The notes: generated by a model not told the origin, from the letters alone. 64,000 bases of DNA from Candidatus Woesearchaeota archaeon (GCA_019322485.1 JAHWIK010000015.1:23216-87215), one strand, 5' to 3'; positions 22,870 through 57,156 are shown, counted from the first letter of the stretch. A program made the numbers and translations.

Positions 22870-24288
22870 TTAACCTGCTATAAACTCTATGATTCTGTCA
22901 TATACTTCCGGGGTAGTTAGAGGATACAGCATATAAGTGTGCTTAAACCTTTCTCCAGTGTAAGCCAGGTTCTTAGCGCCTTGTAAAGGCACGCTTGTAG
23001 AGCAGACAACATCATCATGGTATAGTTCAGTCTTGCCGCAGGGATAATAAGGCACTACACCAGCAACATGAATCATTCCTTTTTTTGCTTTTCCGGTTAT
23101 AGTCAGGTATCTTGTTCTACCTGGGGTTTCATCACCTGAGTTCAGCCTTGTCAGGAATGGACTTCCCTCAACCATGTCATAGCACTCCAGCCCAGGATGG
23201 GAAAAACTGCAGCCCACTGCAGGAGCTATTATATTTTCCCCGCCAATAATTCCGTGGTTTGGTGTTCCGATTGTAACAAGAACCTCAACACTCCCGCTTC
23301 CATATTTTCTTATATATTCTCTTGACACTAATCCGCCCATGGAATGGGCTATGATTATGACCTTGTTCTTTCCAGTGTAGTGCTTTAAGGTATCTATTGT
23401 CTTCTTAATCCTGTCTGAGTAGGCTGAGATATCCTTTTCATCCTCAACGCCAATTATCGAGCCCCTGTCATCATATACACCTAGGTAATAGGTTGTTCTT
23501 ACACAGACTGGTTTGTTTAGCTTTCCCCACAGTCCTGCTCCAACAGATTCCTCTCTTGCGCTTGGCAGCAGGATACCTTTGTTGATATAAAGGCCGTCTT
23601 TCTCAAGTTTATTCTGGAACTCTAAAAAATGATTTATGTTAGAATAATCTACATCCTCATTTTCTTTTGCAGAATGCCCATGGATAAGGATAATTGGTAA
23701 ATCAGTGTTGGGGTCAACGCTTTCTTGGGGTATGTATTCCTCTTTGCAGTCTGCAGGGCAATTCATTGGATTTTCATTAGCATCGCATCTTCCATTGCCG
23801 CAGGTTATAATCTCGCATCTTCTTGTTTTTGTGTTGCATCTTCCGTTAACACCACATCTGCAGTCATTAGGCGCTGTAACACAGTTTTCCCCAAGTTCAG
23901 ATTCACAGAGGCCGTCCTGGCAGTCAACTAAACCGCAGTCCTTGTCGCAGCCAAGCCCACACTCCCCAGGATTGCAGATTAGGTCGCCGCAATAAGAGTC
24001 TGCCTCGCAGCTTCCGCAGTCTTTTGCGCATGCAGAACAGCTTTCTTCTGCCTGGCAGAAATAATCCCCGCACCAGTCGCAGTCTAAGGAACATATGCCT
24101 CCCTCGTCTTCCTGGCAGATTCCGTCACCGCACCAGTCGCAATCAGCAAAACACAGTTCAACCTCATTTTCCTGGCAGATTCCATCACCGCAATAAGGCT
24201 TATTTGCAATGAAGAATAAATAACCAGAACCGCTTACCAAAAGGACAATGATGAACACCACAACTATTTCATTTTCAGATATTTTCAT
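22870..24288 (-). CDS. membrane-anchored alpha/beta-hydrolase (lipase/esterase, PGAP1/lipase class 2-like) with an N-terminal Cys-rich CGDGxC repeat stalk
   Basis: TM anchor; three 'CGDGICQE.E...C..DCDWC' repeats; hydrolase motifs 'ILIHGHSAKE' and nucleophile elbow 'IIIAHSMGGLVSREY'. Confidence 0.6.
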   Translation of the reverse strand: MKISENEIVVVFIIVLLVSGSGYLFFIANKPYCGDGICQENEVELCFADCDWCGDGICQEDEGGICSLDCDWCGDYFCQAEESCSACAKDCGSCEADSYCGDLICNPGECGLGCDKDCGLVDCQDGLCESELGENCVTAPNDCRCGVNGRCNTKTRRCEIITCGNGRCDANENPMNCPADCKEEYIPQESVDPNTDLPIILIHGHSAKENEDVDYSNINHFLEFQNKLEKDGLYINKGILLPSAREESVGAGLWGKLNKPVCVRTTYYLGVYDDRGSIIGVEDEKDISAYSDRIKKTIDTLKHYTGKNKVIIIAHSMGGLVSREYIRKYGSGSVEVLVTIGTPNHGIIGGENIIAPAVGCSFSHPGLECYDMVEGSPFLTRLNSGDETPGRTRYLTITGKAKKGMIHVAGVVPYYPCGKTELYHDDVVCSTSVPLQGAKNLAYTGERFKHTYMLYPLTTPEVYDRIIEFIAG

Positions 24289-24484: not shown

Positions 24485-24838
24485 TTAGTCTTTTGTGATT
24501 AGCTCATCAGCCTCAATATAAGGCTTTGTTCCTGCAAAAGGAATCTCACCATAACGGATTGTCCCCCTTACAACATAATCAACCTCATACTCAAATGTTT
24601 GCTGCGCTACTGCTTTCTTTACATAAAGATAAGGGCCACCGCTTACCTTAGCCCATTCCCGCTTTGCTGTTCCATCTATGATGCCCCTTATCTCAACTTC
24701 CATGCCTTCATACTTTTCAGGATTATCATTTATTGCTTTAATCAATGCACCATCACTTGCTTTTCTTACAATAATCTCATAGCCACCAAACTGGCAGCCG
24801 CATAAAAAAATTAAAAATAAAACTAATAGTTTTTTCAT
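24485..24838 (-). CDS. small secreted/lipoprotein-like protein (117 aa), last gene of the giant-protein operon
   Basis: 'MKKLLVLFLIFLCGCQFGG' signal; start overlaps the stop of the upstream gene by 4 nt. Confidence 0.4.
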   Translation of the reverse strand: MKKLLVLFLIFLCGCQFGGYEIIVRKASDGALIKAINDNPEKYEGMEVEIRGIIDGTAKREWAKVSGGPYLYVKKAVAQQTFEYEVDYVVRGTIRYGEIPFAGTKPYIEADELITKD

Positions 24839-26016
24839 TTTTTCTTCCTCTTTTTAGGCTTTAGTTTCTTTATCATTATTATCAATGCTGCAGCTATAAT
24901 AGCTAAGGCAACTGCCACATACAACAATGGAGATACCTTTCTTTCTGCTTCGTGCAGCTCTATTGTAAACTCCCTTTCAAAGGTTTTATCTTTATAGTAA
25001 GCCTTTGCCTTTAGTTCATAAGATCCAAGCTCCAGCTCATGCGCTTCCCAATGAAGCCTTACAGAGCTGTTCCTGTTTGGTTCGATATCAATCCTGTTTG
25101 CTTCCATAGCTGCAATTACTGTGCCATTCCTGATAATATCTGCAGTCAGGTTAACATCCTCAAGCTCTTTATTCCAGTTTGACCCTAAGAACATATTTAT
25201 CCTGTTGATTTTATCAACAACAGCAGTTCTTGTTCCTAAGAAAATCAGCACCCCTTCTTCACCAATCCTAAAACTTCCAGTTTCTTCTACTGCTTTTCCG
25301 GAAAACTTAATGATTGATTCTGCATCATACTCACCAGGCTTGAACAGGAACTTCTTTATGGTTAATTGGTTTTCATGACTTTTTCCAGGCTCAATAGTAA
25401 ATGTTGCTTTTGGCAGGGATAGTATCTTCTTCTCTGTATTTCCCAGAATCTTATAACCAAGCACTACATCATGGAATCCATTTACAAGTGCAGCTTTGTA
25501 CAGGCTTGCAACTTTCTCTTTATTCTCATATATGTTAAGGTCATTCTCTATTCCTCCAATTGTTATTGCGCCTTTGTTTTCCATTACTGTTGTAAATTTC
25601 ATAAGATATTGGCTGTCATCAATAACCAAAAGCTCTGTTTTAAGGTATTCCTCAGGATACGGAACAAATAAATTAACCGTATGATGTACTGATGGCTTTG
25701 TTGTTACTGTTCCTGAACCTGCTGGTTCTTCATATACAACTATCTTAGCCTGATGCTCGCCAGGCCCGAAAGGCCCTGATAGGTTAAAGCTGAATTCTTT
25801 TGGGCCTATTACAACCCCTTCACGCGCAATCTCCACGTCAAGCTCACCTTCAACACCAATTGTAATCCTTGTTGGAAGGTTTGATGAAGGTATAACTGTA
25901 AAAACACCTGAATGCTCTTTATTCCCAAAGAAATCTGTCTTTGCGGGCATTGCCCCTAAAGCAAACACAGCGTCTATTGAAAGCACCAATATAATAAATA
26001 AAATCCATTTTTTCAT
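24835..26016 (-). CDS. secreted protein with an N-terminal signal peptide and a C-terminal TM anchor plus KKRKKK tail (393 aa)
   Basis: Signal 'MKKWILFIILVLSIDAVFALG'; C-terminal 'PLLYVAVALAIIAAALIIMIKKLKPKKRKKK'; start overlaps the giant gene's stop. Confidence 0.45.
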   Translation of the reverse strand: MKKWILFIILVLSIDAVFALGAMPAKTDFFGNKEHSGVFTVIPSSNLPTRITIGVEGELDVEIAREGVVIGPKEFSFNLSGPFGPGEHQAKIVVYEEPAGSGTVTTKPSVHHTVNLFVPYPEEYLKTELLVIDDSQYLMKFTTVMENKGAITIGGIENDLNIYENKEKVASLYKAALVNGFHDVVLGYKILGNTEKKILSLPKATFTIEPGKSHENQLTIKKFLFKPGEYDAESIIKFSGKAVEETGSFRIGEEGVLIFLGTRTAVVDKINRINMFLGSNWNKELEDVNLTADIIRNGTVIAAMEANRIDIEPNRNSSVRLHWEAHELELGSYELKAKAYYKDKTFEREFTIELHEAERKVSPLLYVAVALAIIAAALIIMIKKLKPKKRKKK

Positions 26017-29000
26017 GTTGTTCTCACCAATATAGTTGAATTCTTCTGCCCCGAGGGCTCAAGCAACGGCACAGTTGCGTTCAAATCAATCTCTGCTGTG
26101 TCTGAGGCATCTTCCCAGTTTAGATTATATATTGCCGGCGTGCTGTTTGAAGGCATTGGAGTTAATGTTGTCGTTGCTGAAGTGAATGAGCCGGATTCAT
26201 TCACGCCTATTGCGAATTGATATGACTCATTTGGATTAGGCACTGTCTCAAACAAGTCAGTTGCATTTATTGATATGTTGACAATTAAATTGCCTACATT
26301 TTCCAATAGGAGCGGCAGTGGGCTGTCATCTTCTGTGGATTCACTAAAGCCAGGTATTACCACCCCAAAGTCAACTACATCCCTTGTCAGGTTTATTGCT
26401 ATGTATGAGCTTAATGTAAAGTTCCATACATCGCTCCATTCTCCTGAGATAATGGAGTGATAAGCCCTTACTCTCCAGAAATATGTCTTGTCAAGCTCGA
26501 GGTCGCTTATTAGTGTGTGGCTGGTTTCATTATTGCTTCCTTCTGATAGATTTCCTCTTGAGTAATCTAATGATGTAAAGATTGGCGAATCATCTATCTC
26601 TATCTCGTATTTTGCAGTTGTTGAGCCATTGTAGGTTGCATTGTACCAAGTGAATGTTGGCCTTAGCTCTGTTGTGGTGTTTCCGCTTTCCGGGCTTTTG
26701 AGGATAACCTTTGACGGCCTGTTGGCTTCTTCTCTTTCACATGCGTCTTTGCATGTGTAGCCATTGTATGTCTGGGTATAATCACAGACCCATATGTTCT
26801 CTTTGCTGTTTCCATTGCTCCAAGGCAGTTCTCCTGATACTGTTCTTGTGTCATTGTCATCTCTTAACTCAACCTCAACAGTATAGTATCCTTCACTCAA
26901 GCCGCTTAAACTGACTGTGCCATTGCACATTCCTGTTGATGCAAGCGGAACACTTCCGAGAGATATCCTGCTGCCAGGGCTGTTCTTTTCTGCATAAACA
27001 ACACAGCCAGAGGCATTAGCAGTAAATCCATAAGTGCTTGTGAAATTAACTGCTACATTCAGTGTTTCTGTTGGCACGTAATAATCCTTTGTTGGGTATG
27101 AAGTACTGCAGTTTGTGTCTATGCAGAAGAATCCTGTTGTTTGTTTTGGCAAGGTTCTTACATCAATGGTCAGGCTTGTGTTTGGACCAATATTGCCGAC
27201 ACCATCAACTGCCCTTGCATAGATTGTATTTAAGCCGTCAGATAATGTGAGGGCATACCTGCAGTCATAAGCTGATGTTTCATTTACCCATCCAGTGCCG
27301 TCATTAAACTGGCAAAGTTCAACGCCGGAATTCCATGTGCCAGAGTCAGTTGCATTTACTCTTACATAAACAGTGTCTGAGGCGCTTAATCTGGTAACTG
27401 TATTGTCTGTTTTTATCATTCTTAGCCTGGAGGTTGTGTAATCATCATCTGCAGGAGTTGTTTTTACAAATACTGGTGCTTGCGGCGGCTCTGTTTCAAG
27501 GATGTACTGCGTAACATCTGCATTTTGCTCTACTCCGCCTATACTTGTTGAGACATAATACGAGAAACTCGAGTTTTGTACAATTGTGTCATTATCAGGG
27601 ACAGTTATCCAGAATGTTAGGTTTAAAATCTGGTTTGGATATGCTCCGCTGTATTCTATAAGGACAGCCTGGTAATGATATCCTGATTGAGCACTGTACT
27701 GCACATTGAAATTACCAGAGTCTGTTCCATAGATTCCAGAGTTTGATGCATTCATCTCATAATCTAATGGCACATAGGTTGCGCTTGCACTTCCAAGATA
27801 AATCTGGATTGTTTTTCCGTTTACATTTGTGGCTGAGTCTGTGAATGTGAATGTAAGGTTTTTTCCTCTCCAATGATATTCTGTGTATGTCAGGTCAGGT
27901 GTTCCGCCGCCCCAGTTTGTGTTTACTGAGTAATCTGGGGGCTCTCCGCCTATGTAGCTGACTGCTGCTGCATCAGAGCATTTTAGCGTGCATGCTGCTA
28001 AACTATTTGTATACGGGGCCAGGCATGAAGCACCTGATGAACAATCTGAGTCTTCGCAGTCAACTGAATTGTCAAAATCATTGTCATAGCTGTCTGTGCA
28101 TGCTGATTCTGTTGTTCTATACCCTGTTCCTGCACTAGCCGAGTTGCAGATTCCTTGGCTTGTAGACCACACACCAACGATTCCATCACAGTCTGAATCC
28201 CTGCAGTCATAAACACCATCATTAAGGCTGGCGTTTATCTCATTAGGGTCATAATTTGTCTTTGAGATGTATTCATCTTGGTATTCATACTCATTGTTTA
28301 AGCCATCCATGCACGAATCTAGCGTTACATTCTCTTCTGGAGGACAGACCCTGCATAATCCTTGATGATAACATCCTGTATCATAACAGTTTGCAAGATT
28401 ATCGCCATCATTATCCATTGAGTAAGCTGTTGTTCCGCTTGAATTATAATCACCGCAAAGAGTATCATCAAAAGGATCAAAGTACATCTCTTCAAATAAT
28501 GCACATAAAATATCTCCTGGGCCCAGCAGGCCATTGCAGTCAGGGTCGCCACAATCTGTTCCTGAAGCATCATTTGTCTCGTATTCTGTTCCATTCCATG
28601 TGTAGGCATCTAGGTCATTGTCTAATGTGTCATTGCAGGTCTGCTCTACTATTGATAATCCTGAGCCGTCATCTGTACAGACATACAGGCCAGATTCCTG
28701 CACAGCATAGCAGTTATAATCATCACAATCTTCACCTGTATTTGCACCGGCATGTGCGCTTCCTGACTCTCCAACATAATAGGTTCCTAGGTCTTGGTCA
28801 TTGTCAACTCCATCAGAACAGTTGTATTCCCATCTTATTGTGCATAAGCCGATATTTCCTGAGTCATTTATGTAAGTGTTATTGCAGTCAGAGTCATAAT
28901 TATTCCATGCACAGTCAATTCCTGCTCCAGCTGCAGTACTTAGATTAATACCATCTGACAAATAATTATCAAGGTCATTGTCAATGCTGTCAAGGCACCA

Positions 29001-32000
29001 GTTTTGTGTGCTGTTGCAGCCAGTTGGTGAGCATGTATAGTTTTCCCGGCCAGGGCAGGCAGAATTGTTATAACAGCTGTAATCATTGCAGTCACCATCT
29101 TGCAGGTAGGTGTTTGCTCCAAAGTGGTATTGATATGATGCATTTGTCCATCCAGGGTTCTGCATCTGGCTGATGTAATAATCCTGGTCATTATCAAAAA
29201 CATCTGTACAGTTTCTTTCAATAATTAATTCACAGTTTTGTCCTGACGGGCCGATAGCTGTATCATTGCAGTCTTGGTCATATCTATAGCTGTCATAAGC
29301 AATAGCATACGGCCAGAATTGGTTTGGAGTGAGACCATATGCATAATAGATGCAGTCTATTCCGCCTGATAGGTTTTCCACTCTGTTTGAATCTAATAAA
29401 TAATCAGTTATGTTGTAGACATACCTGTCTAGGTCATTGTCAACTCCATCAGTGCACAATGATGCTGTTTCTGTTGTAGGGCATGCAGAGTCATTTGCAC
29501 AGTCATAATCATCACAATCATAGCCGCCAGAGGCGCTTGTCCTATTCCCGCCAGGATTGTATGCATTATCTAAGTCATTGTCATAACCATCTGTACAGTT
29601 TATCTCGTGGCCTAGCTCACATTTTCCAGGACCCATATCAACACCATCACAGTCTGCATCAGGGTAGTGGTTTCCATCATAGTTATATCTGCAGTCCATT
29701 CCACCGCCATACTGGTTGTTTGTTGCACTATATTGTGTTCCTGTCCAGCCGGTTATTGTATAATAATCAAGGTCATTATCCTTGTTGTCAGAACAGTTTG
29801 CTCCATCATTTTCCCAATAGTTTGTTACATTGCATGTTGATTGGCAGTCATACTCTCCATGTGCAATGTTGCTTCCACCTGCACCATATTGATAATTTGG
29901 GTTTGTTGTTGAGGCTCCTGTTGAGGTCGTATTGCAGTCAAGTTCCCCATCCTGGTCATTATCAAATCCATCTGAGCAGCTTGTTTCAAAGATTAATTGG
30001 CATGTTCCTGCTGGCAATACAGAACTATTGCAGTCTATATCATACTCTACCATCCTGCAGTCAGCTCCTGCTCCTGGCAAGCCCGAGTAAAAGTCTAGGT
30101 CATTGTCCTTTCCGTCAATGCATGTTATTCCTGACTCATTTATGGGACAGTTTGAATCATTGAAACAATCATATTCTCCATGAGGATAAGTTCCTCCACC
30201 AGAATAGGTTGACCTGGGGTTAGTTGGATTGCTTAAGTACTGGATTACCCCGCCTGTAAAGAATGCTGTTGTGTTGCAGTCAAATGCTCTGTCACGGTCA
30301 TTATCAAACAAGTCATTACATATTGTTTCTACCCCTAATTCGCATGTGCCATTGATTCCTCCAACATTATAGCTGAGCCAGCTTGAGTTTAGGATGTATG
30401 TGTTGTTGCAGTCAGTGTCCCATGTACCTGCATTATAATGGCAGTCTGTATCACCATCATCGTCATTGTCAAAGCCGTCTGTGCAGGAGTTATTTGTTGC
30501 AGCATATTTGCTTTCATTCTGGTAAGCGCATAAAGGATAGGTTCCGTCAGGGTTTGCCGATGTTGAACCAATATAAGCGTCGCAATCAATGTCAATACAG
30601 TCTGTTGTATAATCCAAGTCATTGTCATATGAGTCTGCACAAGATATATCATGTTCATCTCTTACGCCGTCATCTGAAATATTTATGTTAAATTTAAAGT
30701 CATATGCTGAACCATTAAATATCCTGTTCAAGACTAAGCCATACATTCCATAGAAGTTGTTTGTTGTATTCATCATTGCTTTTAGGACATTATCTAATGT
30801 GCTTTGGGTGTAAGGTGTTGGGTCAGAAGGAGGATTTGGGCCAGACTGGGCAATTATTGAGTTAGCACTTGTTGTTTTTCCGCTTAGACCGGTTGTTGCG
30901 GAGTAGTTTAATATCCAGAAATCACCAGGGTTTTCCTGCCATAATGATGTATTGAACTGCCACACCTTGAAATAAGCTGTATAGCCTGTTATTTGCGAGG
31001 TTTGATACAGCCTCATACTAAACAATGCTTCTGGCTGTATCTTGTATGTGTAAGTGACTGCTGTGTTCGATGCTGTTCCAGTGCATAAGTTTGGTGCGCA
31101 TGAAGCATCACAGGTTCCACCGTCTATGCATTGAAGTGACCCATCTAAATCACCTGGGTCATATGGCGGGTCATCTCTCCAGCCAGCTGCTGTTTTGTTG
31201 CAAGTCCATGCAGGAGTGCCCTGCTTGTTTGTATTAGAGCCCCCTACAATATAATATTCTCCGTAGACAATTGAAGCGCAGTCTGAATCCTCACAATCTA
31301 TTTTACCATCTCCATCATCATCTGCATTATTAGCACAGTGCGTCTCCACAACGTCAGGGGTATTCTTTTTCTTTATTGAGAAGTCAACGTCTTTTGCACC
31401 ATAATAATATGATGAGTCTGCGGGATTATAGAAAACACTTGAACAGGTGTTGTTTTCAAGGAAGTAGTTTGAGTTATCTACGCCGGCTGCACAGTTTGCT
31501 GCCCTGGTCACATAACCTACATACCATGCATAGTTGAGGGCAGCTTTACCCTCGTAGAAAGCAAGTTGCACTGTTCCGTTTAATCTTCTGCCAGATGTTA
31601 CAGGTATTGTGCATGTCCTGTGGCATTCTTCACCAACAGGGCATGTTGAATCCTCAGAGTTATTGACATTAGTCACTGTATTGCTTTGGCTTATTGTATA
31701 GGATATAGAGTAATTATTTCCTGCTGTGTTGGTAACTGTTTCTGCTCCATCTGCATAGTTCGAGTCCATGCAGGAGAAATTAGCTTTTAGGTTTTCGATT
31801 ATTCCTTCTCCGATTACTGTCAGATTTATTACTGAACCATCTTCGTAGAACACCCTTCTCCTGTAATTATTTGAGGTATCTGCCACTCTCAACAGGAAGA
31901 ATCCTACTGTTCCTGATGAGCTAGCTCCTCCTGTTATTTCTGTAATAGATGATAACTCTTTTCCATCAGGGATTATGAAGAAGTTTAGTGAACTGACAAG

Positions 32001-32063
32001 TAAGAGGATAATACAAAGTACTAATTTAATAATTTCAGATATCTTTTTTGTTTTATCTTTCAT
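26013..32063 (-). CDS. giant (2016 aa) cell-surface protein with ~14 MopE-like putative metal/Ca-binding repeats (C[ST]DGxDND[LQD]D...DC); N/T/S/D/G/Y-rich with many N-glycosylation sequons
   Basis: Uninterrupted 6051-nt ORF. N-terminal signal-anchor 'IIKLVLCIILLLVSSLNFFIIP'. Repeated motifs such as 'CTDGFDNDDDGDTDC', 'CSDGFDNDQDGELDC', 'CTDGYDNDLDN' and 'CANNADDDGDGKIDCEDSDC'. Almost no K/R/E in the mature region. Confidence 0.7.
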   Translation of the reverse strand: MKDKTKKISEIIKLVLCIILLLVSSLNFFIIPDGKELSSITEITGGASSSGTVGFFLLRVADTSNNYRRRVFYEDGSVINLTVIGEGIIENLKANFSCMDSNYADGAETVTNTAGNNYSISYTISQSNTVTNVNNSEDSTCPVGEECHRTCTIPVTSGRRLNGTVQLAFYEGKAALNYAWYVGYVTRAANCAAGVDNSNYFLENNTCSSVFYNPADSSYYYGAKDVDFSIKKKNTPDVVETHCANNADDDGDGKIDCEDSDCASIVYGEYYIVGGSNTNKQGTPAWTCNKTAAGWRDDPPYDPGDLDGSLQCIDGGTCDASCAPNLCTGTASNTAVTYTYKIQPEALFSMRLYQTSQITGYTAYFKVWQFNTSLWQENPGDFWILNYSATTGLSGKTTSANSIIAQSGPNPPSDPTPYTQSTLDNVLKAMMNTTNNFYGMYGLVLNRIFNGSAYDFKFNINISDDGVRDEHDISCADSYDNDLDYTTDCIDIDCDAYIGSTSANPDGTYPLCAYQNESKYAATNNSCTDGFDNDDDGDTDCHYNAGTWDTDCNNTYILNSSWLSYNVGGINGTCELGVETICNDLFDNDRDRAFDCNTTAFFTGGVIQYLSNPTNPRSTYSGGGTYPHGEYDCFNDSNCPINESGITCIDGKDNDLDFYSGLPGAGADCRMVEYDIDCNSSVLPAGTCQLIFETSCSDGFDNDQDGELDCNTTSTGASTTNPNYQYGAGGSNIAHGEYDCQSTCNVTNYWENDGANCSDNKDNDLDYYTITGWTGTQYSATNNQYGGGMDCRYNYDGNHYPDADCDGVDMGPGKCELGHEINCTDGYDNDLDNAYNPGGNRTSASGGYDCDDYDCANDSACPTTETASLCTDGVDNDLDRYVYNITDYLLDSNRVENLSGGIDCIYYAYGLTPNQFWPYAIAYDSYRYDQDCNDTAIGPSGQNCELIIERNCTDVFDNDQDYYISQMQNPGWTNASYQYHFGANTYLQDGDCNDYSCYNNSACPGRENYTCSPTGCNSTQNWCLDSIDNDLDNYLSDGINLSTAAGAGIDCAWNNYDSDCNNTYINDSGNIGLCTIRWEYNCSDGVDNDQDLGTYYVGESGSAHAGANTGEDCDDYNCYAVQESGLYVCTDDGSGLSIVEQTCNDTLDNDLDAYTWNGTEYETNDASGTDCGDPDCNGLLGPGDILCALFEEMYFDPFDDTLCGDYNSSGTTAYSMDNDGDNLANCYDTGCYHQGLCRVCPPEENVTLDSCMDGLNNEYEYQDEYISKTNYDPNEINASLNDGVYDCRDSDCDGIVGVWSTSQGICNSASAGTGYRTTESACTDSYDNDFDNSVDCEDSDCSSGASCLAPYTNSLAACTLKCSDAAAVSYIGGEPPDYSVNTNWGGGTPDLTYTEYHWRGKNLTFTFTDSATNVNGKTIQIYLGSASATYVPLDYEMNASNSGIYGTDSGNFNVQYSAQSGYHYQAVLIEYSGAYPNQILNLTFWITVPDNDTIVQNSSFSYYVSTSIGGVEQNADVTQYILETEPPQAPVFVKTTPADDDYTTSRLRMIKTDNTVTRLSASDTVYVRVNATDSGTWNSGVELCQFNDGTGWVNETSAYDCRYALTLSDGLNTIYARAVDGVGNIGPNTSLTIDVRTLPKQTTGFFCIDTNCSTSYPTKDYYVPTETLNVAVNFTSTYGFTANASGCVVYAEKNSPGSRISLGSVPLASTGMCNGTVSLSGLSEGYYTVEVELRDDNDTRTVSGELPWSNGNSKENIWVCDYTQTYNGYTCKDACEREEANRPSKVILKSPESGNTTTELRPTFTWYNATYNGSTTAKYEIEIDDSPIFTSLDYSRGNLSEGSNNETSHTLISDLELDKTYFWRVRAYHSIISGEWSDVWNFTLSSYIAINLTRDVVDFGVVIPGFSESTEDDSPLPLLLENVGNLIVNISINATDLFETVPNPNESYQFAIGVNESGSFTSATTTLTPMPSNSTPAIYNLNWEDASDTAEIDLNATVPLLEPSGQKNSTILVRTT

Positions 32064-32212
32064 TATTCTATTAACACCACTTTTACTTTTTTGTTAGCCC
32101 AGTGTTTAGGAACGTAGATTTGAGCACCGTTGCCGCTGTGTTTTGCGGTCTTCTCAATAACCTCATAACCTTCCATTTCCATTTGAATCGGCTTTCTCTT
32201 TAGGCGTTTCAT
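32063..32212 (-). CDS. DUF2080-like small protein, copy 1 (49 aa; MKRLKRKPIQMEMEGYEVIEKTAKHSGNGAQIYVPKHWANKKVKVVLIE); stop overlaps the giant gene's ATG (TAATG)
   Basis: Translated by hand from the minus strand; below the 60-aa cutoff of the ORF track. '...GNxAxIxVPKxWxxKxVKVxLxE' matches my recollection of the archaeal DUF2080 ('putative transposon-encoded') family. Confidence 0.5.
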   Translation of the reverse strand: MKRLKRKPIQMEMEGYEVIEKTAKHSGNGAQIYVPKHWANKKVKVVLIE

Positions 32213-32352
32213 TATTCTATTAACACCACCTTGACTTTTTTGTTAGCCCAGTGTTTAGGAACGTAGATTTGAGCACCGTTGCCGCTGTGTTTTGCAGTCT
32301 TCTCAACTACCTCATGCCCTTCTATTTTCATCTGAATTGGCTTACTTTTCAT
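32064..32352. repeat. tandem direct duplication (2 x ~145 bp, the first ~100 nt nearly identical) carrying the two DUF2080-like genes
   Basis: 'ttctattaacaccac(c)tt(t/g)acttttttgttagcccagtgtttaggaacgtagatttgagcaccgttgccgctgtgttttgc' occurs at 32066 and 32215. Confidence 0.8.
32212..32352 (-). CDS. DUF2080-like small protein, copy 2 (46 aa; MKSKPIQMKIEGHEVVEKTAKHSGNGAQIYVPKHWANKKVKVVLIE); stop overlaps the copy-1 ATG
   Basis: Tandem duplicate of copy 1; the 3' two-thirds are near-identical at nucleotide level and the N-terminal coding part has diverged. Confidence 0.5.
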   Translation of the reverse strand: MKSKPIQMKIEGHEVVEKTAKHSGNGAQIYVPKHWANKKVKVVLIE

Positions 32353-32388
32353 GTAGCTACAATGTAGCTACATCACTTTATAAAGATT
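32351..32388 (-). promoter_or_regulatory. putative promoter/operator of the DUF2080-giant-protein operon: TATA-like 'TTTATAAA' (32378-32385) plus duplicated palindrome 'ATGTAGCTAC-A-ATGTAGCTAC' (32351-32371) abutting the start codon
   Basis: The TATA-like element is ~29 nt upstream of the minus-strand ATG at 32352. GTAGCTAC is self-complementary and occurs twice in tandem. Confidence 0.4.
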
Positions 32389-32436: not shown

Positions 32437-32715
32437 TTACTGAATATCCTCAATCCTAATTATATGATATCCAAACTGAGTCTTTACGGGGCCGACAATG
32501 TCTCCTTTCTTTGCATTGAAGCAGGCATTCTCAAACTCTTTTGCCATTTGACCTCTTTTAAACCATCCAAGATTTCCTCCCTTTTTTCTTGAAGGGCACA
32601 TTGATTTCTCTTTAGCAACCTCTGCAAAGTCCTTTCCATGAGTCACATCATAAGAAACAACAAGAGCTTCCTGCTCTGTTTTAACTAAGATATGCGATGC
32701 ATTGACTTTTTTCAT
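32437..32715 (-). CDS. parvulin-type peptidyl-prolyl cis-trans isomerase (Par10/PinA-like)
   Basis: 92 aa; 'ASHILVK...CPSRKKGGNLGWFKRGQMAKEFENACF...GYHIIRIE' parvulin signature. Confidence 0.75.
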   Translation of the reverse strand: MKKVNASHILVKTEQEALVVSYDVTHGKDFAEVAKEKSMCPSRKKGGNLGWFKRGQMAKEFENACFNAKKGDIVGPVKTQFGYHIIRIEDIQ

Positions 32716-32729
32716 AAAACACCCCTGAT

Positions 32730-33452
32730 TTATTCAACATAAACCTTTTCCTTTCCTAGATTCTTAAATGGAATCTCACCAAATCTGCAATTTCTGCAGG
32801 TTGCATCCAAATCAACCCAGTGGTCCATTGATTTATAGCTTTTCAGGGCATCTGGAAGATAAGCCTGGACATAAACATGCCTTGGAATGAAAACTAACCT
32901 TGTGTTTACACCAATTGCTTCTAAGAGAGTTGCTAATAGAACAGCAGCATCATCGCAGTCACCACCCTGAACAGAAAGAGATTCTTTGGCTGTCTTAACA
33001 TACTCAAACTCATTTGGGTCAGAGACATAATTGAAATTATCACGAATAAAATAATAGAGGGCTTTTGCATGGCATACGCGATTAGTAGGGCAGCCCATAA
33101 CTGAAACCCTGTCAGCAGTCTGCTTGATTAAAGGGTCTGTTGGGTCTATTAACTCCAAGAAATCGTATTTGTTGGTCACATTATGTTTTGTAAGGTTTAA
33201 TGAGAATTCTGGAACAACCTCGCTGATTGTTGGAATATAATTAGGTGCAGGATCAATCTTTATAGAATAAGAAGGAACCAGCCATAGCACAACTAATAAT
33301 AACAGAAATATTGCCATAATCCATTTTATAGGGCCTCTCCACCATGGCTCTTGCTCAATATCCTCATGAACTTCGTGTTCTTCTTCCATATTGATTGTTT
33401 TTTCTTCTATGTTTATATTGTTTTTGTTTGAGGAAAGCTTTATAAATCGCAT
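32730..33452 (-). CDS. membrane-anchored transglutaminase-like cysteine protease domain protein
   Basis: TM helix, then 'VQGGDCDDAAVLLATLLEAIGVNTRLV' (transglutaminase-core Cys motif) and downstream His/Asp. Confidence 0.55.
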   Translation of the reverse strand: MRFIKLSSNKNNINIEEKTINMEEEHEVHEDIEQEPWWRGPIKWIMAIFLLLLVVLWLVPSYSIKIDPAPNYIPTISEVVPEFSLNLTKHNVTNKYDFLELIDPTDPLIKQTADRVSVMGCPTNRVCHAKALYYFIRDNFNYVSDPNEFEYVKTAKESLSVQGGDCDDAAVLLATLLEAIGVNTRLVFIPRHVYVQAYLPDALKSYKSMDHWVDLDATCRNCRFGEIPFKNLGKEKVYVE

Positions 33453-35889: not shown

Positions 35890-36923
35890 GAAGCAAAACA
35901 AAAGAAATCAGGATTGGAAAACTGAAGATTGGCGGAGATAATCCTATTGCAATACAGTCAATGACTAATACTGATACAAAAGACGAGGAAGCAACAATAA
36001 AACAGATTCATGAGCTAGAGGAGAATGGCTGCGAGATAGTTAGGGTTTCTGTTCCTGACAAGGAATCGTTGCTTTCATTAAGAGCAATAAAAGAAAACAT
36101 AAGCATTCCATTGGTTGCTGATATTCATTTTGACCATAAATTAGCTGTAGAAGCTGCAAGGATTGCAGACAAGATAAGGATTAACCCAGGAAATATTGGG
36201 AAAGAGAACCTGAAAGAGGTTGTTGATGCTGTTATGGATTCAAATATTCCGATGAGGGTGGGGATTAACCTAGGTTCTTTGGAAAAAGACATTGAGAAGA
36301 AGTTTGGCCTTACTGCATTAGGTATGGTTGAGAGCGCAATGAGGTCTGTGAAAGAGATAGAAAGGCTTGGCTTCTACAATATGGTTATTTCATTAAAGGC
36401 TTCTGATGTGTTAAAGACAATAGAAGCTTACAGATTGTTTTCACAGAGGTCACAATACCCTTTACACGTCGGTATAACCGAGTCTGGGAGCAGTTTTACA
36501 GGAACTGTTAATTCATCAGTTGGAATTGGAGCTTTATTATTGCAGGGAATTGGAGATACAATCCGCGTTTCATTATCAGCTGAGCCTGTTGAAGAGGTTA
36601 AAGTTGGCTGGCAGATTCTGAAAGCACTTAGGCTTAGGAAGAGGGGGATTGACATAACAAGCTGCCCAACGTGCGCAAGAAAAGGCATAGATGTTATCAA
36701 TATTGTCAAGGAGCTTGAGCAAAGAACCTCAAAAATGAACAAGCCTTTGCATATTGCAGTTATGGGCTGCGGTGTTAATGGTCCAGGAGAAGCTAAAGAA
36801 GCTGATATTGGTGTTGTCGGCGGAAAAGGAAATGTTTTGCTTTACAAGAATGGAATGATGGTCGGCAATATTGAGGGAGATGTTCTTGAAAGGTTGATGA
36901 AGGAGATAGAGAATTCAAAATGA
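35886..36923 (+). CDS. ispG: 4-hydroxy-3-methylbut-2-en-1-yl diphosphate synthase (GcpE/IspG)
   Basis: 'IRIGKLKIGGDNPIAIQSMTNTDTKD' N-terminal TIM-barrel signature; C-terminal [4Fe-4S] ligands 'CPTCAR...MGCGVNGPGE'; start overlaps the dxs stop. Confidence 0.9.
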   Translation: MRSKTKEIRIGKLKIGGDNPIAIQSMTNTDTKDEEATIKQIHELEENGCEIVRVSVPDKESLLSLRAIKENISIPLVADIHFDHKLAVEAARIADKIRINPGNIGKENLKEVVDAVMDSNIPMRVGINLGSLEKDIEKKFGLTALGMVESAMRSVKEIERLGFYNMVISLKASDVLKTIEAYRLFSQRSQYPLHVGITESGSSFTGTVNSSVGIGALLLQGIGDTIRVSLSAEPVEEVKVGWQILKALRLRKRGIDITSCPTCARKGIDVINIVKELEQRTSKMNKPLHIAVMGCGVNGPGEAKEADIGVVGGKGNVLLYKNGMMVGNIEGDVLERLMKEIENSK

Positions 36924-39453: not shown

Positions 39454-39474
39454 TGAAAATCAAAGATTTTCAGT

Positions 39475-41153: not shown

Positions 41154-41157
41154 GATT

Positions 41158-57130: not shown

Positions 57131-57156
57131 TAAAAATTAAAAAAATAAAAAAGAAA

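What the first reader, a model, noticed from the sequence alone, without database searches (positions are those of the whole stretch)
26013..32063. Giant 2016-aa surface protein built from ~14 'CxDGxDNDxDGxxDC' (MopE-like / putative Ca/metal-binding) repeats
The repeat 'C[ST]DG[FVY]DND[LQD]D...DC' recurs about every 80-120 residues. It matches the short 'putative metal-binding motif' (Pfam Cu-binding_MopE-type) described in bacterial surface proteins, and here it occurs in an archaeon. The protein is almost devoid of K/R/E, extremely rich in N/T/S/D/G/Y, and carries dozens of N-x-S/T sequons. This suggests a heavily N-glycosylated, calcium-stabilised adhesin or S-layer-associated protein for host attachment.
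Basis: partly seen in the sequence, partly recalled or inferred. Interest (0 to 1): 0.6.

Follow-up and report, generated by a model that had tools for sequence, protein, structure and literature searches.

The report
Giant calcium-repeat surface protein, Woesearchaeota
This is a real 2016-residue secreted protein of a tiny (DPANN) archaeon. [quoted passage not shown]

Summary
The ORF (26013..32063, minus strand, 2016 aa) and its repeated motif are real. There are 13 exact and 15 loose copies of C.D..DND.D, against about 0.01 expected by chance. The protein is deposited as a hypothetical protein of a Candidatus Woesearchaeota MAG and has 57-77 % identical orthologues.

Pfam PF11617 (MopE) and the Myxococcus Cys-rich repeat model give no hit. 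The repeats instead match NCBIfam NF033662, the "acidic double-disulfide repeat" (86 bits, cutoff 41).

A profile built only from these repeats finds one thing in the whole PDB: the teneurin C-rich domain (7plp, E = 1.6e-6). That domain binds three Ca2+ in a 1.5 Å crystal structure. Fourteen of the 15 repeats keep 7-9 of its 9 ligand side chains, in register with Cys 1, 2, 3 and 5. So the calcium-binding reading is supported through a different, structurally characterised relative.

Cys is 98 % invariant across orthologues. Sequons are about twice a reversed-motif control. The C-terminus is tandem Ig/fn3-like.

The gene sits in a conserved, translationally coupled cassette with a WxLIP-like membrane-anchored protein and a small lipoprotein-like protein.

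Verdict: a new member of a known kind. Adhesion and host attachment remain inference.

The parts
26013..32063 (-). Giant ORF, 2016 aa. It is NCBI hypothetical protein KY360_02710 of a Candidatus Woesearchaeota archaeon.
   Evidence: ORF listing. 100 % match to P0001, and orthologues P0002-P0004 at 57-62 % identity. P0008 is 77 % identical over the C-terminal region.
31971..32030 (-). N-terminal hydrophobic segment (about aa 12-31) after a basic n-region (MKDKTKK...). It is either a Sec signal peptide or a signal-anchor; which one is not resolved.
   Evidence: Sequence and Kyte-Doolittle scan. It is the only hydrophobic segment in the giant and in its three full-length orthologues P0002-P0004.
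31377..31958 (-). N-terminal non-repeat region, aa 36-229. Fold and function unknown.
   Evidence: No Pfam or NCBIfam hit. A profile of the orthologues finds nothing in the PDB. It is conserved only in the orthologues and P0066, and weakly in P0006.
31254..31352 (-). Repeat 1, compact form (aa 238-270, C243/C257/C262). It is the best NF033662 stretch.
   Evidence: NF033662 best stretch at aa 240-264. The N-terminal profile hits 7plp at this site. 7 of 9 ligand positions are identical and 9 of 9 are D/E/N.
30681..31253 (-). Cys-containing region between repeat 1 and repeat 2 (aa 271-461). Fold unknown.
   Evidence: No family hit. Conserved in the orthologues.
27921..30680 (-). Array of repeats 2-15 (aa 462-1381). 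These are acidic four-Cys units, some compact and some carrying insertions.
   Evidence: Motif positions. NF033662 scores 86.3 bits over 9 stretches. A profile of the repeats hits only teneurin C-rich domains in the PDB. Across orthologues Cys is 98 % and Asp 77 % invariant.
28506..30344 (-). Five A+B super-repeats (aa 574-1186). Type A units (C-x7-C.D.[FYV]DND.D) start at aa 582, 696, 823, 952 and 1082. Type B units (..C.D..DNDLD) start at aa 648, 757, 870, 1023 and 1143.
   Evidence: Identity over the 12 residues upstream of C1 is 0.35 for A-A and 0.07 for A-B. Residue +8 is always L in type B.
28014..28124 (-). Repeat 15, compact form (aa 1314-1350). All 9 teneurin Ca2+-ligand positions are present, and the Cys spacing is C1-x13-C2-x4-C3-x5-C4.
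   Evidence: phmmer hit to 7plp. Ligand table. AF2 pLDDT is about 78-87 for model residues 21-50.
27117..27401 (-). Predicted beta-sandwich domain (aa about 1555-1649).
   Evidence: AF2 model residues 256-350, block pLDDT mostly 77-87. Weak OmpL47-type hit at aa 1563-1635.
26832..27086 (-). Predicted beta-sandwich domain (aa about 1660-1744).
   Evidence: AF2 model residues 361-445, pLDDT 73-92. Foldseek matches tandem Ig/fn3 arrays.
26388..26726 (-). fn3 / Ig_Rha78A_N-like domain (aa about 1780-1892).
   Evidence: Sub-threshold Pfam hits PF25788, PF16656 and PF00041. Many fn3-annotated homologues match this stretch only. AF2 pLDDT is 90-97.
24835..26016 (-). Partner gene 1, 393 aa. It has a signal peptide, Ig-like domains including a WxLIP host-binding-domain-like domain, a C-terminal TM helix and a basic tail. 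Its ATG overlaps the giant's TGA (ATGA).
   Evidence: PF11797 E=2.8e-10, 40.7 bits against a cutoff of 28.9. Weak PDB hit to EfmWxLIP1 9i1y, E=0.0086. It is conserved next to the giant in L001, L002 and L003 at 38-42 % identity.
24485..24838 (-). Partner gene 2, 117 aa. It has an N-terminal hydrophobic segment followed by a lipobox-like L-x-G-C in 2 of 3 orthologues, and a 4-nt overlap with partner 1.
   Evidence: Alignment A3, 36-47 % identity. Same position in L001, L002 and L003.
32063..32352 (-). Two tandem small ORFs (46 and 49 aa, 87 % identical), each joined to the next gene by a TAATG overlap. They are specific to this window and not part of the conserved cassette.
   Evidence: Sequence. 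Sub-threshold DUF2080 hits. TRF finds a 149-bp unit x1.9. They are absent upstream of the orthologues in L001 and L003; L002 could not be searched because its file was missing, and its gene list shows no such gene upstream.

Best explanation
The gene encodes an exported, very acidic, probably N-glycosylated cell-surface protein of a Woesearchaeota (DPANN) archaeon.

Layout:
- An N-terminal signal or anchor helix.
- About 430 aa of unknown fold, with one repeat embedded in it.
- A roughly 900-aa array of 14 further acidic four-cysteine mini-domains.
- A C-terminal string of Ig/fn3-like beta-sandwich domains.

Each mini-domain belongs to the NF033662 'acidic double-disulfide repeat' family and is homologous to the teneurin C-rich domain. 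By that homology each unit is expected to bind up to three Ca2+. The ligands would be E(-3), D+2, D+5, N+6, D+7, D+9, the Asp before Cys2, and the two Asp before Cys3. Two disulfides, C1-C3 and C2-C4, would lock the unit.

The array would then be a calcium-rigidified, protease-resistant stalk that holds the terminal domains away from the cell.

The protein is co-translated with a WxLIP-like single-pass membrane protein and a small lipoprotein-like protein. These probably tether or organise it at the membrane. The likely role is attachment to a partner or host cell, or to a surface.

Shown:
- The ORF, the repeats and their family.
- Ligand and Cys conservation.
- The sequon excess.
- The conserved cassette.
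- The beta-sandwich C-terminus.

Inferred:
- Actual Ca2+ binding.
- The disulfide pattern.
- Glycosylation.
- Tethering by the partner.
- Adhesion.

The confidence figure is for the whole statement. The structural part (exported protein built from NF033662 / teneurin-C-rich-type Ca2+-binding units) I put at about 0.8. The adhesion and tethering part I put at about 0.4.
For: Repeat family:
- NF033662 scores 86.3 bits against a cutoff of 41, over 9 stretches.
- The same model hits relatives P0006, P0003, P0007, P0028 and P0048.
- It also hits the tool-verified 26-aa Ten4 fragment at E=6.5e-10, 38.6 bits.

Link to teneurin:
- A profile made only from the giant's 12 repeat cores hits only teneurins in the PDB: 7plp at E=1.6e-6, and Ten2, Ten3, Ten4 and Ten-m at about 1e-3, all at the C-rich site.
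- The Ten4 C-rich domain binds 3 Ca2+ through E835, D840, D843, N844, D845, D847, D851, D854 and D856. Its disulfides include C838-C857 and C852-C863 (PMC9058538).
- 14 of 15 repeats keep 7-9 of these 9 positions, and repeats 823, 1143 and 1322 keep all 9.

Conservation:
- Across four orthologues at 57-62 % identity, Cys is 98 % invariant and Asp is 77 % invariant in the array. Ser and Thr are 14-21 % invariant.
- Every orthologue has exactly 88 Cys outside the N-terminal helix.

Glycosylation signal:
- Sequon counts are 71, 61, 65 and 56, against reversed-motif counts of 30, 29, 36 and 37.
- 28 of 71 sequons are conserved in all four, against 6 of 30 reversed motifs.

C-terminus:
- AF2 gives domain pLDDT of 73-97, and Foldseek matches tandem Ig/fn3 arrays of adhesion receptors, the SiiE adhesin, an archaeal S-layer protein and GhpA.

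Cassette:
- Giant, then a roughly 400-aa WxLIP_HBD protein, then a roughly 120-aa protein, with 4-nt overlaps, in three further loci whose flanks differ.

Relatives:
- Mostly giant proteins of Nanoarchaeota, Aenigmarchaeota and Woesearchaeota. Many have a signal peptide plus a C-terminal TM anchor, and many show a sequon excess.
Against: - No experimental data exist for this protein or for any NF033662 member found here.
- 10 of the 15 repeats carry 7-26-residue insertions between D+9 and Cys2 (C1-C2 gap 21-40 against 14 in Ten4). A partly overlapping set of 7, including two of the five C1-C2-compact repeats, carry longer C2-C3 gaps of 9-37 residues against 5 in Ten4. The first insertion site covers the position of the Ten4 backbone ligand L849. 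Not all three sites need survive in every unit.
- Teneurin's third disulfide (the CC doublet and Cys6) is absent.
- AF2 failed on an insertion-bearing super-repeat (pLDDT 41). The geometry of the confidently modelled compact repeat could not be superposed on 7plp with the tools available.
- Orthologues come from an oxygen-depleted water column (Saanich Inlet 200 m), where extracellular disulfides are less certain.
- The giant has no C-terminal anchor. The partner shows no sequence similarity to the anchored C-termini of the relatives, so tethering by the partner is only an analogy with WxLIP.
- No WxL domain was detected in the giant.
- No AglB/STT3 gene lies in the window.
Confidence: 0.6

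Rival explanations
1. It is an S-layer or other cell-envelope lattice protein rather than an adhesin. The acidic, glycosylated, Ca2+-bridged molecule would tile the cell surface.
For: - It is very acidic, rich in sequons and exported.
- Foldseek hits include the Haloferax pentameric S-layer protein 7ptp.
- From general knowledge, Ca2+ commonly bridges S-layer subunits.
Against: - The 7ptp match is only generic tandem beta-sandwich similarity, with TM-scores of 0.11.
- The family is tiny and patchy: 79 cluster representatives among 1.84 billion. The cassette was found in only one GTDB species genome.
- The window holds other candidate surface proteins.
- There is no evidence of lattice contacts or of high expression.
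Confidence: 0.15
2. It is a MopE-type copper (or other transition-metal) binding or scavenging protein, as implied by the Pfam name the first reader used.
For: - The motif half 'C.DG.DND.DG..D' resembles positions 13-29 of PF11617. Bacterial compact repeats get sub-threshold PF11617 hits of 13.7-22.1 bits.
- Tucker 2012 aligned the teneurin core with the 'MopE Cu-binding motif'.
Against: - PF11617 gives no hit on the giant, either whole or as eight single repeats at E<=10.
- MopE's Cu site is two His plus a kynurenine (PMC3423442 abstract). CorA and MopE* carry a separate Ca2+ site made of acidic side chains (PMC3912023).
- The giant has only 15 His (0.74 %), and they are poorly conserved (33 %).
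- In the one solved structure of this motif, it binds Ca2+.
Confidence: 0.04
3. The invariant cysteines are metal ligands (Zn or Fe-S-like knuckles) or free thiols, not disulfides, because the organism lives in anoxic water. The repeats would be metal-thiolate knots that still present acidic loops.
For: - There are four invariant Cys per unit.
- One orthologue comes from a Saanich Inlet 200 m metagenome (SI34jun09_200m, L002), which from general knowledge is oxygen-depleted water. L003 is a Woesearchaeota MAG named SI073_bin58.
Against: - The Cys positions are in register with the disulfide-bonded Cys 1, 2, 3 and 5 of the Ten4 C-rich domain.
- NCBI curators named the family 'double-disulfide'.
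- The extracellular Cys count is even, 88, in all orthologues.
- The protein is exported.
Confidence: 0.1
4. It is a secreted scaffold for substrate capture or degradation, a Ca2+-dependent polysaccharide- or particle-binding protein working with neighbouring hydrolases, rather than a cell-cell adhesin.
For: - The next gene downstream in this window (22870-24288) encodes a Cys-rich secreted lipase/PGAP1-like hydrolase.
- The fn3/Ig_Rha78A_N-like domain is shared with Bacteroidota T9SS-sorted proteins and with a subtilase-containing protein, P0005.
- The same repeat core occurs in a diatom endo-1,3-beta-glucosidase (PMC3278476).
Against: - No catalytic or carbohydrate-binding module was detected in the giant.
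- The hydrolase neighbour is not conserved in the orthologous loci.
Confidence: 0.1

Closest known systems
NCBIfam NF033662, acidic double-disulfide repeat-containing proteins
   Same: - The HMM match is above the curated cutoff (86.3 bits against 41).
- Each unit has four Cys and the core C.DG.DND.DG..DC.D.DC.
- The same model scores bacterial proteins made of little else: P0028 at 535 bits over 23 stretches, and P0048 at 301 bits.
   Different: - Only 5 of the 15 units have the canonical C1-C2 spacing of 14 residues, and only 3 of those also have the canonical C2-C3 spacing. The rest carry 7-37-residue insertions at one of two sites and alternate as A/B super-repeats.
- The HMM therefore sees only 9 stretches.
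- The units are embedded in a 2016-aa multidomain archaeal protein.
Teneurin C-rich domain (human Teneurin-4 residues 834-871; PDB 7PLP; Meijer et al. 2022, PMC9058538)
   Same: - It is the only PDB family hit by the repeat profile (E=1.6e-6).
- All nine Ca2+-ligand side chains are in register, as are Cys 1, 2, 3 and 5.
- Both are extracellular and lie next to beta-sandwich domains.
   Different: - Teneurin has a single copy with six Cys (a CC doublet and a third disulfide, 4-6). It sits between the EGF repeats and the TTR/YD-shell superfold.
- The giant has 15 copies with four Cys each, and no EGF, TTR, NHL or YD domains.
- Ca2+ binding is shown experimentally only for teneurin.
Pfam PF11617 Cu-binding_MopE ('putative metal-binding motif') and the Myxococcus Cys-rich repeat
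   Same: They share the half-motif C-DG-x-DND-x-DG-xx-D. PF11617 gives sub-threshold hits on bacterial compact repeats. Tucker 2012 aligned the two motifs.
   Different: Neither model matches the giant. The PF11617 unit has a different first half and a DNDCDG Cys that is absent here.
Thrombospondin type 3 repeats and LDL-receptor class A modules
   Same: According to Meijer et al., Ca sites I and II of the homologous teneurin domain resemble T3 repeats. Site III and the disulfide pattern resemble LA modules. All are small Ca2+/disulfide-stabilised extracellular units arranged in tandem.
   Different: No Pfam hit to TSP_3 or Ldl_recept_a. This is a resemblance of coordination chemistry only, not detectable homology.
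Gram-positive WxL / Csc surface clusters (WxLIP = DUF916 + DUF3324 + TM helix; PMC10599100)
   Same: - The 393-aa partner has a signal peptide, Ig-like domains, a Pfam WxLIP_HBD hit above cutoff, a C-terminal TM helix and a basic tail.
- It is encoded next to a large surface protein and a small exported protein.
   Different: - No DUF916 (PGBD) hit and no WxL domain in the giant.
- The host is an archaeon without peptidoglycan.
- The PDB match to EfmWxLIP1 is weak (E=0.0086).
Giant surface proteins of DPANN archaea (for example those discussed for nanohaloarchaea, PMC10266531) and giant Ca2+-dependent bacterial adhesins such as SiiE
   Same: All are very large, exported, acidic, repeat-built proteins in reduced-genome episymbionts or on bacterial surfaces. 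SiiE appears among the Foldseek hits.
   Different: The repeat chemistry differs: four-Cys acidic knots rather than BIg or cadherin-like Ca2+ junctions. No homology beyond generic beta-sandwiches was shown.

Membership tests
NCBIfam NF033662 acidic double-disulfide repeat | HMM score at or above the curated cutoff (41 bits) | tested here: met
   86.3 bits, E=7.7e-25, 9 stretches. Orthologue P0003 scores 63.7 and relative P0006 scores 114.3.
NCBIfam NF033662 acidic double-disulfide repeat | Four conserved Cys per unit (two disulfides) in a strongly acidic context | tested here: met
   C1-C4 were identified for all 15 units. Cys is 98 % invariant across orthologues. Each orthologue has 88 extracellular Cys. 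Formation of the disulfides themselves was not tested.
Teneurin C-rich domain | Significant sequence similarity to the solved domain | tested here: met
   Profile A1 against the PDB gives 7plp at E=1.6e-6 and only teneurins below E=0.1. In the reverse direction, the 26-aa Ten4 fragment hits NF033662 at E=6.5e-10.
Teneurin C-rich domain | Nine Ca2+-coordinating side chains: E-3, D+2, D+5, N+6, D+7, D+9, D before Cys2, D-3 and D-1 of Cys3 | tested here: met
   14 of 15 repeats have 7-9 identical positions, and three repeats have 9 of 9. Repeat 14 (aa 1251) is degenerate with 5 of 9. The ligand list comes from PMC9058538.
Teneurin C-rich domain | Six Cys with a CC doublet, consensus ...DCxxx(D/E)CCxxxxCxxxxxC, giving three disulfides 1-3, 2-5 and 4-6 | tested here: not met
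   No CC doublet and no sixth Cys. The units have four Cys. The consensus comes from PMC3278476.
Teneurin C-rich domain | Teneurin context: EGF repeats upstream and TTR, FN-plug, NHL and YD shell downstream | tested here: not met
   Pfam and NCBIfam find none of these domains.
Teneurin C-rich domain | Actual binding of three Ca2+ per unit | not testable with these tools
   This needs ITC, crystallography, or ion-aware structure prediction.
Pfam PF11617 Cu-binding_MopE | HMM score at or above the gathering threshold (27 bits) | tested here: not met
   No hit on the whole protein at E<=1 or on 8 single repeats at E<=10. Bacterial compact repeats reach only 13.7-22.1 bits.
Myxococcus cysteine-rich repeat (TIGR02232) | HMM match | tested here: not met
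   The NCBIfam scan at E<=1 lists only NF033662 and a weak OmpL47 hit; the Myxococcus Cys-rich repeat model, whose accession TIGR02232 I give from memory and whose presence in this library I did not check, is not among the hits.
Thrombospondin type 3 repeat / LDLR class A | Pfam HMM match (TSP_3, Ldl_recept_a) | tested here: not met
   Both are absent from the Pfam results at E<=1 and at E<=10 on single repeats.
WxLIP (for the 393-aa partner) | DUF3324/HBD domain followed by a C-terminal TM helix | tested here: met
   PF11797 scores 40.7 bits against a cutoff of 28.9, at aa 263-358. A hydrophobic helix and a KKRKKK tail lie at the C-terminus.
WxLIP (for the 393-aa partner) | DUF916/PGBD domain, and a WxL-domain partner protein in the cluster | tested here: not met
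   No PF06030 hit in the partner. No WxL domain hit in the giant or in the 117-aa protein.
Archaeal N-glycoprotein | Sequon enrichment and conservation beyond what composition gives | tested here: met
   71 sequons against 34.8 +/- 5.1 in shuffles. The excess over the reversed motif is about 2:1 in all four orthologues. 28 of 71 are conserved, against 6 of 30 reversed motifs.
Archaeal N-glycoprotein | AglB oligosaccharyltransferase in the genome; glycans actually on the protein | not testable with these tools
   No STT3/AglB gene among the window ORFs scanned. The rest of the genome was not available.

The most novel reading that the evidence does not exclude
The prokaryotic acidic double-disulfide repeat would be the evolutionary source of the teneurin C-rich Ca2+-binding domain. 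Its origin has so far been attributed tentatively to a diatom or algal gene. In a Woesearchaeota clade the module would have been expanded into insertion-bearing A/B super-repeats. These would form a calcium-dependent stalk that is displayed through a previously undescribed archaeal counterpart of the Gram-positive WxL/WxLIP anchoring system: the giant, a WxLIP-like TM protein and a small lipoprotein.
Probability: 0.15. Interest if true: 0.6.

Novelty: new member of a known kind. Interest (0 to 1): 0.4.

Why it matters
This gives a concrete, testable annotation to a 'hypothetical' giant protein of an uncultivated DPANN archaeon: roughly 15 Ca2+/disulfide knots of a structurally characterised type, a glycosylated stalk, and Ig/fn3 ends.

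It also ties the curated but unpublished NF033662 repeat to the only solved structure of this motif, the teneurin C-rich domain. That link supplies ligand-level predictions for hundreds of bacterial and archaeal proteins. It adds prokaryotic tandem versions to the discussion of where the teneurin C-rich domain came from.

The conserved cassette with a WxLIP-like membrane protein suggests how a DPANN cell might mount such fibres without a cell wall.

None of this overturns current views. Giant surface proteins are expected in DPANN, and the repeat class is already catalogued.

Tried and rejected
1. Pfam PF11617 and the Myxococcus Cys-rich repeat as the family. There was no hit for the whole protein or for single repeats, so this was rejected.
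2. AF2 of one A+B super-repeat (aa 688-814) with an 18-row alignment of paralogous and orthologous units. Mean pLDDT was 41 and pTM 0.28. The model was unusable and was not fold-searched.
3. Rosetta-stone idea that the 393-aa partner corresponds to the anchored C-terminus of fused relatives. phmmer of the partner, the 117-aa protein and the 472-aa neighbour against 88 relatives gave no hit at E<=0.01.
4. Broad distribution of the cassette. A GTDB scan with the partner alignment found one locus (L003), which is the same lineage as L001. The cassette is therefore narrow.
5. First attempt at a profile search with the 31-aa repeat core. That search returned only 40-84-aa proteins.
6. N-terminal region profile against the PDB. 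Nothing was found except repeat 1 hitting 7plp.
7. Foldseek of the aa 1300-2016 model. The hits were dominated by generic Ig/fn3 arrays. The small repeat could not be compared with 7plp because the model cannot be cropped and no coordinates are accessible.
8. tRNA and Rfam scans of the window found nothing.
9. DNA-level tandem repeats inside the gene: none, so the repeats are old.
It was superseded, which used only the 26 residues printed by the tool.
11. Search for AglB or glycosyltransferases in the window found none.
12. The per-ion ligand assignment in Ten4 appears only in the paper's figures, not in the text. I therefore do not claim which site the insertions affect.

Full report
**1. Observation**

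- The strict pattern C.D..DND.D occurs 13 times. A looser acidic version occurs 15 times, between aa 243 and aa 1322.
- In 2000 composition-preserving shuffles the mean was 0.012 and the maximum 2.
- Composition is D 10.0 %, T 9.8, N 9.5, S 9.0, G 8.5, Y 6.9 and C 4.4 % (89 Cys). K is 2.0 % and R 2.3 %.
- D+E = 290 against K+R = 86, and the pI is about 4.05.

Two details of the observation are wrong.

- E is not rare (4.4 %).
- Motif starts are 47-108 aa apart, mostly 47-82, rather than 80-120.

There are 71 N-x-S/T sequons, against 34.8 +/- 5.1 in shuffles.

**2. Organism and reality of the gene**

- The window is archaeal. It holds L10P/P0 with its insertion domain, L1, an ATP-dependent DNA ligase, a Hel308-type helicase, Rpb7, S24e, S15 and FtsZ.
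- The protein is identical to NCBI 'hypothetical protein KY360_02710 [Candidatus Woesearchaeota archaeon]'.
- Full-length orthologues of 2045-2053 aa are 57-62 % identical. A partial orthologue is 77 % identical over the C-terminal region.
- In the four-way alignment Cys is 98 % invariant, Asp 69 % (77 % inside the array) and Trp 76 %. Ser, Thr and Ile are only 14-26 % invariant.

This is the signature of a real protein under structural constraint, not of a low-complexity artefact. No DNA-level tandem repeats remain inside the gene, so the repeats are old.

**3. What the repeat is**

*The proposed families fail.*

- Pfam gives no PF11617 (Cu-binding_MopE) hit on the whole protein at E<=1, nor on eight isolated repeats at E<=10.
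- The NCBIfam scan at E<=1 does not return the Myxococcus Cys-rich repeat.

*The family that matches.*

- NCBIfam NF033662, 'acidic double-disulfide repeat', matches at 86.3 bits against a cutoff of 41, over 9 stretches.
- The same model scores relatives strongly. P0006 gets 114 bits. The bacterial proteins P0028 and P0048, which consist almost only of this unit, get 535 and 301 bits.

*The link to teneurin.*

- A plain phmmer of the giant against all PDB sequences gave, apart from a non-significant cystatin match (E=0.38), one hit: Teneurin-4 chain 7plp_A, at E=0.011, over aa 1318-1343.
- A profile built only from 12 of the giant's own repeat cores raised this to E=1.6e-6. It then found every teneurin in the PDB (Ten2, Ten3, Ten4 and fly Ten-m) at the same C-rich site, and nothing else.
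- In the reverse direction, the 26 Ten4 residues printed by the tool hit NF033662 at E=6.5e-10, 38.6 bits, covering model positions 4-27 of 32.

*What is known about the teneurin domain (Meijer et al. 2022, PMC9058538).*

- They solved this domain at 1.5 Å.
- Three octahedral Ca2+ are held by E835, D840, D843, N844, D845, D847, D851, D854 and D856, plus three backbone carbonyls.
- The disulfides are C838-C857, C852-C863 and C858-C869.
- Removing calcium lowers the thermal stability of the Ten4 ectodomain.

*How the archaeal repeats compare.*

- I anchored each archaeal repeat on its motif Cys.
- 14 of 15 repeats keep 7-9 of the nine ligand side chains in register. Repeats at aa 823, 1143 and 1322 keep all nine. 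Repeat 14 (aa 1251) is degenerate, with 5 of 9.
- Cys1, Cys2 and Cys3 align with teneurin Cys 1, 2 and 3. A fourth Cys lies 4-26 residues after Cys3, and exactly 6 in four repeats. It corresponds to teneurin Cys5.
- The CC doublet and the sixth Cys are missing, hence the name 'double-disulfide'.
- All four orthologues have exactly 88 Cys outside the N-terminal helix.

The calcium interpretation therefore stands.

*Status of the MopE resemblance.*

- PF11617 gives sub-threshold hits (13.7-22.1 bits, model positions 13-29 of 30) on bacterial compact repeats.
- Tucker et al. 2012 had already aligned the teneurin core with the 'MopE Cu-binding motif' and with a diatom glucosidase (PMC3278476).
- MopE's copper site is made of two His and a kynurenine.
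- CorA and MopE* have a separate acidic Ca2+ site.
- The giant has only 15 poorly conserved His.

So the MopE resemblance is real but partial, and copper binding is unlikely.

**4. Anatomy of the protein**

- aa 1-35: a basic n-region and one hydrophobic helix. This is either a signal peptide or a signal-anchor, and was not resolved.
- aa 36-229 and aa 271-461: regions of unknown fold flanking compact repeat 1. They have no family or PDB match.
- aa 462-1381: repeats 2-15.
  - Repeats 1, 2, 3, 4, 6 and 15 have the compact C1-x13-C2 spacing.
  - The others carry 7-26-residue insertions between D+9 and Cys2. Type A units 4 and 6 instead carry 30-37 residues between Cys2 and Cys3.
  - Repeats 4-13 alternate between a type A unit (C-x7-C.D.[FYV]DND.D) and a type B unit (...C.D..DNDLD), giving five super-repeats of about 113-130 aa.
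  - Identity over the 12 residues upstream of C1 is 0.35 for A-A against 0.07 for A-B.
- aa 1382-2016: beta-rich.

*Structure prediction.*

- I ran AF2 on aa 1300-2016 with a composite alignment of orthologues, partial homologues, fn3 hits and 42 compact repeats.
- Mean pLDDT was 63.7, with confident domains:
  - repeat 15, pLDDT about 78-87, loop-rich;
  - beta-sandwiches at aa about 1555-1649 and 1660-1744, pLDDT 73-92;
  - an fn3-like domain at aa about 1780-1892, pLDDT 90-97.
- Foldseek against the PDB returns only strings of Ig/fn3 domains. These include PTPδ, contactins, NCAM2, the SiiE giant adhesin, the Haloferax S-layer protein 7ptp and GhpA. TM-scores are 0.1-0.29. This says 'tandem beta-sandwiches' and nothing more specific.
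- An earlier AF2 run on one super-repeat failed, with pLDDT 41.

**5. Glycosylation signal**

- Sequons outnumber the reversed motif S/T-x-N in all four orthologues: 71/30, 61/29, 65/36 and 56/37.
- 28 of 71 sequons are conserved in all four, against 6 of 30 reversed motifs.
- Most giant relatives show the same excess, for example P0007 with 262 against 82. Short bacterial relatives do not.

This supports selection for N-glycosylation sites. The modification itself is not shown, and no AglB gene lies in the window.

**6. Genomic context**

The giant is the third gene in a chain of five minus-strand ORFs joined by 1- or 4-nt stop/start overlaps:

1. 46 aa
2. 49 aa
3. 2016 aa (the giant)
4. 393 aa
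5. 117 aa

- *The 393-aa protein.* It has a signal peptide, a Pfam WxLIP_HBD (DUF3324) match above cutoff (E=2.8e-10), a C-terminal TM helix and a KKRKKK tail. Its profile weakly hits E. faecium WxLIP1 in the PDB (E=0.0086).
- *The 117-aa protein.* It has an N-terminal hydrophobic segment and a lipobox-like L-x-G-C in two of three orthologues.
- *Conservation.* In the loci of orthologues P0003 (L001) and P0004 (L002), and in the only GTDB hit (L003, Ca. Woesearchaeota SI073_bin58), the order giant, then about 413-421 aa, then about 127-129 aa is kept, with the same 4-nt overlap. The flanking genes differ between lineages. This is a conserved three-gene cassette in a narrow Woesearchaeota clade.
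- *The WxLIP analogy.* WxLIP proteins of Gram-positive bacteria are Ig-like, membrane-anchored partners that hold WxL surface proteins (PMC10599100). The analogy suggests, but does not show, that the 393-aa protein tethers the giant.
- *A test that failed.* The partner has no detectable similarity to the anchored C-termini of relatives that carry their own TM helix.
- *The two small ORFs.* They are not found upstream of the orthologues in L001 and L003. L002 could not be searched, but its gene list shows no such gene upstream.

**7. Distribution**

- Exhaustive phmmer of the array (aa 462-1381) against 1.84 billion cluster representatives found only 79 proteins at E<=1e-3, and 8 at E<=1e-30. 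Most are 1200-4150 aa.
- Those with names are Nanoarchaeota, Aenigmarchaeota and Woesearchaeota MAG proteins, plus one partial 'Deltaproteobacteria' fragment. All are labelled 'hypothetical'.
- Many have a signal peptide plus a C-terminal TM anchor.
- The compact canonical repeat is more widespread in bacteria, including Myxococcota, Polyangiales, Binatia and Actinobacteria fragments.

**8. Most likely mechanism**

*Shown.*
- An exported, acidic, Cys-invariant, sequon-rich multidomain protein.
- Fifteen units of the NF033662 / teneurin C-rich type.
- Ig/fn3-like C-terminal domains.
- A conserved, translationally coupled partner set.

*Inferred from homology.*
- Each unit chelates up to three Ca2+.
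- Each unit is cross-linked C1-C3 and C2-C4.
- The array therefore becomes a rigid, protease-resistant stalk when calcium is present, as in seawater.

*Inferred from context and from general knowledge of DPANN biology.*
- The molecule is displayed on the cell surface, perhaps held by the WxLIP-like partner.
- It serves attachment to a host, a partner cell or a particle.

*Main uncertainties.*
- Whether the insertion-bearing units keep all Ca2+ sites.
- Whether disulfides form in oxygen-poor habitats.
- Which end is distal.
- Whether the role is adhesion, envelope structure or substrate capture.

**9. Comparison and novelty**

- The protein is a bona fide member of the NF033662 repeat class.
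- Its units are homologous to the teneurin C-rich domain, but they fail that domain's six-Cys definition and its architectural context.
- It is not a PF11617 member.
- I found no paper that names NF033662.
- None of the teneurin papers I read mentions prokaryotic tandem arrays of the C-rich motif. Tucker 2012 proposed a diatom or algal source.
- Giant surface proteins are expected in DPANN archaea.

I therefore rate this a new member of a known kind, of moderate interest. The useful products are a ligand-level annotation and a small conserved cassette, not a new principle.

Noticed in passing
window 32063-32352 (minus strand): Two tandem, 87 % identical small ORFs (46 and 49 aa...EKTAKHSGNGAQIYVPKHWANKKVKVVLIE) lie directly upstream of the giant. 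Each is joined to the next gene by a TAATG overlap. They give sub-threshold Pfam DUF2080 ('putative transposon-encoded protein') hits of 14.5 and 16.4 bits against a cutoff of 21.5. TRF sees a 149-bp unit x1.9 at 91 % identity. They are absent upstream of the orthologues in L001 and L003; L002 could not be searched by tblastn, and its gene list shows none.
   Followed up: partly
window 32351-32372: A perfect 11-bp direct duplication, ATGTAGCTACA x2, contains the palindrome TGTAGCTACA. It sits exactly at the start codon of the first small ORF and is a possible operator or regulatory site.
   Followed up: no
window 33997-42246 (plus strand): A bacterial-type MEP isoprenoid pathway cluster sits in this archaeal window. 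It comprises DXS, IspG (GcpE), a 461-aa PEP-utilizer-domain protein, IspDF, IspE, IspH (LytB) and a polyprenyl synthetase. This is already documented for some Woesearchaeota subgroups (PMC8421398). No DXR was seen among the ORFs scanned.
   Followed up: partly
window 15432-17414 (minus strand): The ribosomal protein L10/P0 ORF is 660 aa, but its Pfam domains cover only the first roughly 180 aa. The region has a very strong AT skew of about -0.36 to -0.37. The long C-terminal extension is unexplained.
   Followed up: no
window 22870-24288 (minus strand): A 472-aa exported protein combines a different Cys-rich repeat (CGDGxCxxxE...C..DC, several copies) with a lipase/PGAP1-like alpha/beta-hydrolase domain. 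It lies just downstream of the cassette in this window only.
   Followed up: partly
window 54977-58272 (minus strand): Two adjacent ORFs (717 and 371 aa) carry PKD, Big_9, cadherin-like and He_PIG domains, so they are further candidate surface proteins. A Peptidase_M64-like ORF lies at 59392-60546.
   Followed up: no
window 9911-12505 and 50620-52584: Two large ORFs (864 and 654 aa) have no Pfam hit at all.
   Followed up: no
P0006 (Woesearchaeota JW968_07260), aa about 1640-1725: This relative carries a second kind of Cys-rich repeat (C.DGI.N.GE.GIDCGGPC.PCP, four copies) just before its C-terminal TM helix. A long charged cytoplasmic tail follows. The giant lacks both features.
   Followed up: no
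window 32437-33452 (minus strand): A parvulin-type PPIase (92 aa) and a membrane-anchored transglutaminase-like protein (240 aa) lie immediately upstream of the operon. They may be involved in folding or cross-linking of exported proteins. They are not conserved in the orthologous loci.
   Followed up: no
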